Below, one piece after another: positions 6,001 through 7,469 of a DNA stretch of 7,469 nucleotides. Origin of the DNA: a virus (lineage: Duplodnaviria > Heunggongvirae > Uroviricota > Caudoviricetes); the IMG/VR virus record IMGVR_UViG_2541047174_000016. One strand, written 5' to 3'. The position numbers are program-made. Position 1 is the first letter of the stretch. Each line of letters starts with the position of its first letter.

Positions 6001-7469
6001 CACACACAGAACACGGTTCATATCCCCCTCACCCCACCAGCCATGACAAAGTTAAGACGCGCCAGGCAGTGGAAAAGCAAATAGCAACCAGCATTAGTGA
6101 AAATGAAATGCCGACGATTACACAGAGGATCTTCGCCAGCGTTATGAGCTTGTCTGACATGCTTAATCCTCTTCACGATTTCAACGCAATGACCAGTTTT
6201 GCCAGCCCATACAGCATCGGAGACACAGCAATACCGACCGCCACCCACTTAATAGCAAAAGCCAGCGCTCTGCTGACGTCATCAGTTACAGGCGCTTTCA
6301 GTTCAAGGCCGTTTTTCATAGTCAATCTCAACAGAATTCGTTTATACTTTCCCATGTTCTCCCTTGCCTTACTCAAGGTCAGAAACACAAAACCCCGTTT
6401 GCGGCCAACAAACGGGGTTTTACTTTTATTCACTTAGTTTTTGCCAGTTCGCAGGATTTCGTGTTATCCGCCAGTGTGAGCAAACCGCATTTTTCAGCAA
6501 AATATTCTGCTTATCTGTCAATTCCCCAGCACGCCAGCGCGCTCTCCTGGTCACGCCGTGAAACCTGACCGTAGCAGTTGTTTGAGCGAATACGGCAGTC
6601 TCTGCCACCGTCCTTAATCCACCAGCGAATCGCCTCACACGCTCCCCTGCGATCGCCTGCATTAAGCCGCTTATAAAACGTCGACGGGAAACACTTACCG
6701 GGGCCAATGTTATAGGGGCAAAATGACGCGATACCTGCTTTTTGTGGCTCGGTCAGTGGAACTTTTATATTACGCTCCACCCATGCCAGCGCCTTATCCC
6801 GTTCGATAGCGTTAACCCGGTCGCATTTTTCCTTCGACAGCTTCATGCCAGGAATCACAGGCTTACCATCCACCCGGGTGGCTCCACGGCAGATGGTCCA
6901 GATACCCGCACCATCACGGTATGCCGTGGTGTGGTTACCTTCCTTTTCATCCAGAAACTGGTCGAGGATTTCAGGCGCAGAAGCACCTGCGGCAATCAGC
7001 GCCAGAACGGCAGCCGACAGGCCGTATCTGATTTTTGCGTTCATGGATATTTATCAGGGTTTATCGATTTCAAATCCCTGGATATGTTAAGTCTTCAGGC
7101 CAGCGGTGGAGTCTTCAGAGAACCCGTAATTATTCCCGGTAGTTTTCCTCTGTAGGTTATCAACACATCCTGCGCCTCTAAAATTACGGGACGCTTTTCC
7201 GGTAACGGACCATCCCCTTCACATAACCCGGCAGCAACATCCATGAAAAACTGCTTCGCCTGCTTTTTCGCCTCAGCTTCGTAAAACTCCAGCGTGGCAC
7301 CTTCAGTACGGTCAAGACTAATCGCCACATCTGGCAACAACAGTGACGGATACCCACCAATTTCCAGTGCCACAGTAACAGTAATCTTATCCGGGTAATT
7401 ATTTATCCCTTTAACAACCAGTTCGTATTTTTTCTTCATCACTTTACTCTCCCCGCGCCGCCTTACGCC

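What the first reader, a model, noticed from the sequence alone, without database searches (positions are those of the whole stretch)
6158..6178. The two mini-ORFs are in the same frame, separated only by TGA plus 4 codons
Mini-ORF A ends ...ALKS-TGA, then AGA GGA TTA AGC (RGLS), then the ATG of mini-ORF B in the same frame. Either (a) they are two coupled genes, with the AGAGGA after the stop serving as mini-ORF B's Shine-Dalgarno, or (b) a single 108-aa two-TM protein (holin-like size and topology) was split by a nonsense mutation or is made at low level by UGA readthrough. A stop-codon-controlled long/short isoform pair would be a neat lysis-timing device.
Basis: seen in the sequence. Interest (0 to 1): 0.5.

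Follow-up and report, generated by a model that had tools for sequence, protein, structure and literature searches.

The report
Two separate small phage membrane genes
The two mini-ORFs are two independent small membrane-protein genes in a prophage lysis cassette, and their shared reading frame is an accident of a 2-base difference in the spacer, so this is ordinary operon organisation.

Summary
On the minus strand, mini-ORF A (6355-6173, 60 aa) ends ...ALKS-TGA. Then come AGA GGA TTA AGC and the ATG of mini-ORF B (6160-6029, 43 aa) in the same frame.

The shared frame is not conserved. In 5,426 complete E. coli genomes the 12-nt in-frame spacer occurs at 485 places. A 14-nt spacer (AGGGAGGATTAAGC, a stronger Shine-Dalgarno) that puts B out of frame occurs at 623 places. 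E. marmotae has TAA, 17 nt, and B out of frame.

The genes also occur apart:
- Salmonella phages have A (TAA stop) running straight into Rz, with no B.
- 933W-type Stx phages have B after ant, with an overlapping start and no A.
- Other loci pair B with a different upstream small gene.

A and B belong to separate PHROG families and each shows purifying selection. Only one singleton draft contig (TGA to GGA) encodes a fusion, and no complete genome does. The cassette already has its own class II holin.

Option (b), a split gene or readthrough isoform, is not. The function of A and B is unknown.

The parts
6173..6355 (-). Mini-ORF A: a 60-aa small membrane protein with a basic N-terminus and a C-terminal hydrophobic span at residues 30-58. 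Stop TGA at 6175-6173. An invariant internal ATG (Met13) lies at 6319-6317.
   Evidence: Matches phrog_1115 at E 6.6e-42. pN/pS is 0.14-0.22 in its frame. PGAP annotates it as WP_001303555.1, hypothetical protein. The exact sequence is seen on at least 996 contigs. Hydropathy.
6161..6172 (-). 12-nt non-coding spacer AGAGGATTAAGC carrying B's Shine-Dalgarno (GAGG at 6171-6168, 7 nt before the ATG).
   Evidence: Anti-SD duplex energy is -5.8 kcal/mol here against -11.3 for the 14-nt allele AGGGAGGATTAAGC. Allele counts.
6029..6160 (-). Mini-ORF B: a 43-aa very hydrophobic small protein. Its stop TGA (6031-6029) lies 7 nt before the Rz ATG.
   Evidence: Matches phrog_4906 at E 7.3e-24. Present in 276 phage records including 933W. 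pN/pS is 0.22-0.29 against 933W and E. marmotae. PGAP annotates it as WP_001280929.1.
6389..6421 (.). GC-rich, terminator-like hairpin (AAAACCCCG...CGGGGTTTT) about 35 nt upstream of A. It accompanies all but one of the A-like genes examined (absent upstream of A in L103).
   Evidence: Covariation: 5 of 13 pairs have compensatory changes and the lower stem is never broken.
5557..6021 (-). Rz i-spanin, with the Rz1 o-spanin embedded at 5616-5801. It lies immediately downstream of B.
   Evidence: Pfam PF03245 at E 6e-50 and PF06085 at E 3e-22. B-to-Rz distance tabulated.
6511..7044 (-). Endolysin R (phage lysozyme) with a weakly hydrophobic SAR-type N-terminus.
   Evidence: Pfam PF00959 at E 6e-25 and phrog_7. 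933W R is described as a SAR endolysin in PMC9239132.
7444..7469 (-). 3' end of the class II holin gene (...RKAARGE*), cut by the window edge. The DUF1327/YdfR gene follows at 7442-7095.
   Evidence: One search compares it with the 68-aa 'class II holin family protein' of L001. DUF1327 match.

Best explanation
A and B are two independent, adjacent small inner-membrane protein genes. They lie in the late operon of a lambdoid (O157:H7-type) prophage, between the SAR-type endolysin R and the spanin genes Rz/Rz1. Shown: A is translated from its own SD (AAGGGAG) and ATG, and terminates at UGA. B has its own ATG 12 nt downstream, preceded at the standard 7-nt distance by a Shine-Dalgarno that sits in the spacer right after A's stop. 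B's own stop lies 7 nt before the Rz start, inside Rz's SD. Inferred: the three genes form a tightly packed, probably translationally coupled chain, transcribed by Q-antiterminated polymerase reading through the hairpin downstream of R. The shared frame of A and B in this window results from a 2-nt length difference inside the SD (AGAGGA here, AGGGAGGA in the more widespread allele). It has no conserved function. Any UGA readthrough product would be incidental. What the two proteins do is unknown. The best guess (low confidence) is that they are accessory late-expressed membrane proteins of the moron type, acting in lysis modulation or exclusion. A-like genes also occur outside lysis cassettes, nearly always behind the same kind of hairpin.
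For: Frame not conserved. In complete E. coli genomes the 12-nt in-frame junction is at 485 places in 433 genomes. The 14-nt out-of-frame junction is at 623 places in 552 genomes. In the fetched loci there are 51 with 14 nt and 33 with 12 nt. E. marmotae has TAA, 17 nt, and B out of frame. With the alternative upstream gene A' the spacer is 2 nt.

Genes separable. Salmonella loci have A (TAA stop) 10-11 nt before Rz with no B, next to Phage_lysozyme or GH19 endolysins; the E. marmotae A-B pair (L105) lies downstream of a GH108 endolysin. 933W-type phages have ant followed by B with an ATGA overlap and no A. L044 has A plus a third small ORF.

Separate families. A matches phrog_1115 and B matches phrog_4906. 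PGAP calls two CDSs in every complete-genome locus fetched or listed.

Selection. pN/pS for A is 0.14-0.22; for B it is 0.22-0.41 against diverged homologues.

No long form. The fused query found only singleton P0001 among 81 hits. The A profile searched against 1.84e9 representatives gave 24 hits, all 87 aa or shorter apart from one weak hit (E 3.2e-4) in a 928-aa protein.

Stop retained. The long-arm and short-arm junction queries give the same 485 places. The 26 O145 genomes closest to the fusion allele differ from it at one base and are annotated as two genes; the one sequenced has TGA.

SD. GAGG or GGAGG lies 7 nt before the ATG, with duplex energies of -5.8 and -11.3 kcal/mol.

Holin already present.
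Against: One natural fusion allele exists (P0001: TGA to GGA on a 12-nt spacer, in a 979-bp draft contig reported from 2 samples), so a fused protein is at least not immediately counter-selected. In the window's allele B's SD is weak (-5.8 kcal/mol) and the stop is UGA, the leakiest stop, so some readthrough product is physically possible and cannot be excluded computationally. pN/pS cannot by itself tell the sense frames from the wobble-aligned antisense frame, which is also open. Strand assignment therefore rests on SD plus ATG, operon orientation, and the spacer indels. No expression data were available, and no function is known for either protein.
Confidence: 0.9

Rival explanations
1. Programmed or tolerated UGA readthrough in the 12-nt (O157-type) allele makes a low-level A-Trp-RGLS-B two-helix fusion that acts as a functional long isoform, for example a lysis-timing regulator.
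For: The in-frame allele is common: 485 places, mostly in O157:H7 and other STEC. Its stop is UGA. B's own SD is weakened in this allele. A singleton GGA fusion exists. AlphaFold models that fusion as helix-linker-helix, with the break exactly at the spacer residues (mean pLDDT 75).
Against: The frame relation is lost in the more widespread 14-nt allele and in E. marmotae. The stop is TAA in E. marmotae and Salmonella. B has its own SD and ATG and functions in contexts without A. Within 12-nt loci B is frameshifted or disrupted in 13 of 33, so the putative extension is not conserved. No readthrough-promoting structure is evident: the local fold has z = +0.9. No Rfam match.
Confidence: 0.04
2. 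A and B are the two halves of an ancestral gene of about 108 aa with two TM segments (holin-like), split by a nonsense mutation. On this view the locus is a decaying pseudogene.
For: The combined size and two hydrophobic segments resemble class II holins. Some B alleles are frameshifted.
Against: There is no intact long orthologue apart from one singleton. A and B occur independently in different phages. All A-family members seen end within about 10 residues of the hydrophobic segment. Neither matches any Pfam holin family. B's C-terminus is uncharged, unlike holins. A genuine class II holin with a charged tail sits upstream. Both ORFs are under purifying selection.
Confidence: 0.02
3. The mini-ORFs are not the real genes. 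The conserved signal would belong to the long antisense ORF on the plus strand (6069-6437, 122 aa) or to a non-coding element.
For: The wobble-aligned antisense frame is open and shows equally low pN/pS. The region carries a conserved hairpin.
Against: An antisense ORF spanning the junction would be frameshifted by the 12/14/17-nt spacer polymorphism. It would also have to run through the covarying hairpin. A and B have conserved SD plus ATG and conserved stop positions, the same orientation and tight spacing as R and Rz, and encode typical TM segments. Low pN/pS in that antisense frame is the expected mirror artefact. No Rfam family matches.
Confidence: 0.03

Closest known systems
Ordinary polycistronic gene pairs with the downstream Shine-Dalgarno in or next to the upstream stop (translational coupling, as throughout lambdoid late operons such as S-R-Rz)
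   Same: Same strand, a 12-14 nt spacer, SD 7 nt before the ATG, the next gene (Rz) again 7 nt after B's stop, and each ORF separately conserved.
   Different: Nothing essential differs. The only peculiarity is that in this allele the two frames happen to coincide.
Programmed UGA readthrough isoforms, e.g. the Q-beta coat protein / A1 readthrough protein (from general knowledge)
   Same: A UGA stop followed by an in-frame open extension in a phage gene.
   Different: In Q-beta the extension has no initiation signals of its own and the frame is fixed in all relatives. Here B has its own SD and ATG, occurs without A, and the frame and the stop codon identity vary between homologues.
Dual-start holin/antiholin pairs (lambda S107/S105, phage 21 S71/S68; from general knowledge)
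   Same: A way for a lysis cassette to make long and short isoforms of a small membrane protein. A itself has two in-frame ATGs (Met1, Met13), with an SD-like GAGG before the second in most alleles.
   Different: Those isoforms arise by alternative initiation 2-3 codons apart in a proven holin, not by stop-codon suppression. A and B match no holin family, and a separate holin is present.
Phage morons encoding small membrane proteins in late operons, e.g. HK97 gp15 superinfection exclusion (from general knowledge)
   Same: A small membrane-protein gene associated with an intrinsic-terminator hairpin and found at different positions in late regions: the lysis cassette, after the capsid gene, and after tail-fibre genes.
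   Different: The hairpin lies upstream rather than downstream of A. No sigma-70 promoter was found in the roughly 35 nt between the hairpin and A. There is no sequence similarity to a characterised moron, and the function is untested.
Accessory membrane proteins of lysis cassettes: the Mu gp25 releasin (PMC9239132) and P2 LysA (from general knowledge)
   Same: Small membrane proteins encoded next to a SAR endolysin and spanin genes.
   Different: The Mu releasin is a 99-aa DUF2730 protein with a 73-aa cytoplasmic domain. A and B match no Pfam family at all and have almost no soluble domain. No lysis role has been demonstrated.

Membership tests
Programmed stop-codon readthrough (recoding) gene | The downstream ORF stays in frame with the upstream ORF across homologues | tested here: not met
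   The 14-nt (+2 frame) allele is at 623 places against 485 for the 12-nt allele in E. coli genomes. The spacer is 17 nt in E. marmotae and 2 nt with A'.
Programmed stop-codon readthrough (recoding) gene | A leaky stop (UGA) is conserved at the junction | tested here: not met
   The stop is TGA in E. coli alleles but TAA in E. marmotae and Salmonella A genes.
Programmed stop-codon readthrough (recoding) gene | The extension lacks its own initiation signals and is never found alone | tested here: not met
   B has SD plus ATG. It occurs after ant or A' without A.
Programmed stop-codon readthrough (recoding) gene | A fused protein product is detectable | not testable with these tools
   This needs a Western blot, mass spectrometry or Ribo-seq on an induced lysogen.
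Split (nonsense-interrupted) gene | Intact full-length orthologues are the common form elsewhere | tested here: not met
   There is one singleton fusion, P0001, among 81 hits. All A-profile hits are 87 aa or shorter apart from one weak hit (E 3.2e-4) in a 928-aa protein. No complete E. coli genome carries the fusion allele.
Class II holin | Sequence membership of a holin family | tested here: not met
   A and B have no Pfam or NCBIfam hit at E up to 0.1-1. Their PHROG families are 'unknown function'.
Class II holin | Two TMDs in one polypeptide followed by a charged C-terminal tail | tested here: not met
   Two TM segments would exist only in the hypothetical fusion. B ends ...LSWLVG with no charge. 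The real holin of the cassette ends ...KIREDRRKAARGE.
Class II holin | It supplies the cassette's only holin function | tested here: not met
   A 68-aa 'class II holin family protein' lies upstream in the collinear, ~98%-identical O157 locus L001. Its 3' end is at window 7444-7469.
Two independent operon genes | Each ORF has its own start codon and Shine-Dalgarno at canonical spacing | tested here: met
   A has AAGGGAG (-8.4 kcal/mol). B has GAGG or GGAGG 7 nt upstream (-5.8 and -11.3 kcal/mol).
Two independent operon genes | Each ORF is separately conserved under purifying selection | tested here: met
   pN/pS for A is 0.14-0.22 and for B is 0.22-0.41 against diverged homologues. Caveat: the wobble-aligned antisense frame mirrors this signal.
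Two independent operon genes | Each ORF occurs without the other in related genomes | tested here: met
   A occurs without B in Salmonella and in L037/L044. B occurs without A in 933W-type phages and in L006/L012.
Moron-type cassette (for A) | The same gene unit sits at different genomic positions, bounded by an intrinsic terminator | tested here: met
   A-like genes occur behind a covarying hairpin in lysis cassettes, after capsid genes and after tail-fibre genes.
Moron-type cassette (for A) | Its own promoter allows expression from the prophage | tested here: inconclusive
   The consensus scan found no sigma-70-like site on the coding strand between the hairpin and A. The scan is crude.

The most novel reading that the evidence does not exclude
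A and B are uncharacterised late-expressed inner-membrane proteins that tune lysis, for example through spanin or SAR-endolysin timing. On this reading A would make long and short isoforms from its two in-frame starts (Met1 and the invariant Met13, which is preceded by a conserved SD-like GAGG). The O157-type in-frame allele, with its weakened SD for B, would add a rare UGA-readthrough A-B fusion as a third species.
Probability: 0.07. Interest if true: 0.55.

Novelty: already known. Interest (0 to 1): 0.15.

Why it matters
The main value is as a clean negative. An eye-catching in-frame stop between two mini-ORFs in a lysis cassette is not a recoding or lysis-timing device. It is a spacer-length polymorphism inside a Shine-Dalgarno sequence. 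Two by-products may be useful. First, B is a conserved 43-49-aa ORF directly upstream of Rz in 276 phage records, including 933W, and is left unannotated in most of the Stx-phage records listed. Second, A belongs to a small family of hairpin-preceded small membrane-protein cassettes scattered through late operons. Neither has a known function, so both are reasonable candidates for a knockout and lysis-timing test in Stx phages.

Tried and rejected
- The search for related loci with B alone failed because B is too short.
- The genome-contig scan with the A alignment found nothing confirmed.
- Pfam, NCBIfam and PADLOC gave no family for A or B. Rfam found nothing in the whole window.
- Literature searches by accession number, lysis-cassette terms, DUF1327/YdfR, and phrases such as 'between R and Rz' found no paper describing these ORFs.
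- K-12 Qin has no equivalents: rrrQ abuts rzpQ.
- mRNA structure around the junction is not unusually stable (z = +0.9), so there is no evidence for structure-mediated coupling or readthrough stimulation.
- B is not a duplicate of the Rz TM segment and is not related to A.
- The AlphaFold model of the singleton fusion shows only two helices and does not discriminate between hypotheses.
- The apparent 105-aa 'fusions' P0076 and P0078 are gene-caller N-terminal extensions of B through another frame of A'. P0011 is a frameshifted A.

Full report
**Context.** The finding lies on the minus strand of a lambdoid prophage lysis cassette. Reading the minus strand from high to low coordinates, the genes are:
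- the 3' end of a class II holin (7469-7444...RKAARGE*);
- a DUF1327/YdfR gene (7442-7095);
- a phage lysozyme R with a SAR-type N-terminus (7044-6511);
- a GC-rich hairpin (6421-6389);
- mini-ORF A (6355-6173);
- mini-ORF B (6160-6029);
- Rz (6021-5557) with embedded Rz1 (5801-5616).

Bor follows on the plus strand, then terminase and portal genes. The 541 nt around the finding are 100% identical to E. coli O157:H7 chromosomes, where PGAP annotates two hypothetical proteins, WP_001303555.1 and WP_001280929.1.

**Observation.** The sequence reads ...AAA TCG TGA AGA GGA TTA AGC ATG TCA GAC... (6181 to 6152, minus strand). The stop, the four spacer codons and the shared frame are exactly as described. 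By itself this is a one-in-three coincidence for neighbouring same-strand ORFs.

**Is the frame relation conserved?** No.
- Close relatives (93-95% identical) carry AGGGAGGATTAAGC, which is 14 nt, between the same TGA and the same ATG. This puts B in the +2 frame relative to A.
- Short junction queries that can only seed if a 28-mer spans the indel site were run on 5,426 complete E. coli genomes. They found the 12-nt allele at 485 places in 433 genomes, largely O157:H7 and other STEC. The 14-nt allele was at 623 places in 552 genomes of diverse lineages.
- In 94 fetched loci the tally is 51 (14 nt) against 33 (12 nt), always with TGA.
- The 2-nt difference lies inside the Shine-Dalgarno. GGGAGGA pairs with the anti-SD at -11.3 kcal/mol and AGAGGA at -5.8, and both end 7 nt before the ATG. 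The window therefore carries a weaker-SD allele that happens to be in frame.
- In E. marmotae a diverged A-B pair has a TAA stop, a 17-nt spacer, and B out of frame.

**Are the two ORFs separable?** Yes.
- In Salmonella prophages A (78-85% identical, TAA stop) is followed 10-11 nt later by Rz, with no B. There it sits next to Phage_lysozyme or GH19 endolysins with various holins; the E. marmotae A-B pair (L105) lies downstream of a GH108 endolysin and two holins.
- B is present in 276 phage records. In 933W, P13374 and many Stx phages it follows the ant gene, not A. There it starts 5-6 codons earlier at an ATG that overlaps ant's stop (ATGA). This explains the 49-position profile of phrog_4906.
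- In other loci B follows a different small TM gene, A' (phrog_6632), with a 2-nt spacer. Elsewhere A is followed by a third 28-aa TM ORF instead of B.
- In about 87 of 94 loci B ends within a few nucleotides of the Rz start.
- A and B fall in different PHROG families and show no similarity to each other or to Rz.

**Are they real genes?**
- pN/pS for A is 0.14 among alleles and 0.21 between E. coli and Salmonella (pS about 0.5).
- pN/pS for B is 0.29 against E. marmotae and 0.22 against 933W.
- Other sense frames give ratios near or above 1 (0.7 to more than 9) and contain stops.
- Caveat: the antisense frame whose wobble positions coincide with the sense frame mirrors these values and is open. 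Strand assignment therefore rests on the conserved SD plus ATG, the conserved stop positions, operon orientation, and the spacer indels and hairpin that any long antisense ORF would have to cross.
- A has a basic N-terminal region and one hydrophobic span (residues 30-58), ending two residues later. B is hydrophobic almost throughout.

**Is there any long form?**
- A 108-aa model of the readthrough product was searched against 5.8 billion protein clusters. Hits covered A only or B only, with one exception: P0001, a one-member cluster from a 979-bp draft contig in which TGA is GGA on a 12-nt spacer.
- Its closest complete-genome relatives (26 O145 strains) differ from it at one base and are annotated as two genes; the one sequenced, RM9872, carries TGA.
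- A junction query with a long right arm, able to seed on stop-mutated copies, returned exactly the same 485 places as the short query. No in-frame copy with a sense codon exists in these genomes.
- An HMM of the A family searched against 1.84 billion representatives found only 24 clusters, all 87 aa or shorter apart from one weak hit (E 3.2e-4) in a 928-aa protein. All ten distant members inspected end within about 10 residues of the TM segment.
- Other 'long' hits are artefacts: frameshifted A, N-terminal over-extensions, or reverse-order B::A' fusions caused by frameshifts in four-ORF loci.
- AlphaFold models P0001 as two helices broken exactly at the spacer-encoded linker. This is compatible with, but not evidence for, a functional hairpin.

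**Holin idea.** The cassette already has a 68-aa class II holin with the typical charged tail. A and B match no holin family, and B lacks a charged C-terminus.

**Mechanism.**
- Shown by sequence and comparison: there are two cistrons, and B's SD sits in the spacer immediately after A's stop. B's stop is embedded in Rz's SD.
- Inferred from general knowledge of lambdoid late operons: A, B and Rz/Rz1 are transcribed together by Q-modified polymerase reading through the hairpin after R. Ribosomes terminating at A's UGA can re-initiate at B, which may compensate for the weaker SD in this allele.
- Function is unknown. A-like genes also occur after capsid and tail-fibre genes, sometimes in tandem arrays, nearly always behind a hairpin supported by covariation (L103 has no such hairpin). 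This points to a mobile, moron-like small-membrane-protein cassette rather than a dedicated lysis component.
- No literature describes either protein.

**Verdict.** Interpretation (b), a split gene or a stop-codon-controlled isoform pair, is not supported. This is an ordinary gene pair that is already annotated, though as hypothetical proteins, so interest is low. Residual curiosity attaches to the unknown function of these conserved small proteins and to a possible dual start in A.

Noticed in passing
window 6389-6421 (either strand); also L095-L102, L105, L108-L110: A GC-rich terminator-like hairpin (AAAACCCCG...CGGGGTTTT plus a U-run) lies about 35 nt upstream of A. It recurs upstream of all but one of the A-like genes examined (L103 has no such hairpin), in lysis cassettes, after capsid genes and after tail-fibre genes. 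Five of its 13 pairs show compensatory changes. It looks like the boundary of a mobile small-gene cassette. It also sits between R and Rz, so late transcription must read through it.
   Followed up: partly
window 6367-6378 (minus strand CCTTGAGTAAGG); L108 and L109 leaders: A second short hairpin between the big hairpin and A's SD seems to covary across distant cassettes (CCTTG/CAAGG, CCTAT/ATAGG). In some of them its 3' arm is the SD itself. It was seen by eye only, and RNAalifold did not call it.
   Followed up: partly
window 6317-6319 (internal ATG, Met13 of A) and 6326-6329: Met13 of A is invariant in all family members with that region. An SD-like GAGG (GGAGG in L103, where the amino acids differ) lies 6-7 nt upstream in most alleles; it is GAGA in this window. 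Two loci have lost the first ATG, and many records annotate the 48-aa form. A may have two start sites and make long and short isoforms.
   Followed up: partly
L008 (933W, AF125520.1 about 27423-27569) and most Stx phage records: A conserved B homologue (48-49 aa, starting at an ATG that overlaps ant's stop) lies between ant and Rz. It is unannotated in 933W and in most of the Stx-phage records listed among the 276 that contain it.
   Followed up: yes
L006 1598-2161; L044; proteins P0030-P0034: Some E. coli prophages carry up to four small TM ORFs in a row between R and Rz: A' (phrog_6632), B, a 5'-truncated copy of A, and a 28-aa A-like ORF. In several genomes a frameshift fuses B to the truncated A in reverse order, giving an 83-aa protein.
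   Followed up: partly
L004, L028, L035-L043, L066, L067, L091 (homologues of window 6029-6160): B is frameshifted, extended or disrupted in 13 of 33 loci with the 12-nt weak-SD spacer, and in 0 of 48 with the 14-nt spacer. These trace to only about four independent events, so this may reflect lineage sampling rather than relaxed selection.
   Followed up: partly
L095, L099-L102 (Salmonella), about 25 nt upstream of A: In Salmonella the position of E. coli's A start codon is occupied by an 8-codon mini-ORF (MCREVYSL in L095). Its TGA overlaps a GTG start of A preceded by GGGAGG. This is a different initiation arrangement for the same protein.
   Followed up: no
window 6069-6437 (+): A 122-aa antisense ORF spans both mini-ORFs and the hairpin. 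Its frame mirrors the low pN/pS of A and B because the wobble positions coincide. It is judged an artefact because the spacer indels and the hairpin would disrupt it.
   Followed up: yes
window 1-5700 versus L001: The window is collinear with the O157 locus L001, at 100% identity over about 5970-6469 and 89-98% from the holin to mid-Rz. Further on it diverges completely: bor plus a different terminase and portal here, against PerC, YlcI and Nu1-type terminase in L001. The mosaic joint lies inside or after Rz.
   Followed up: no
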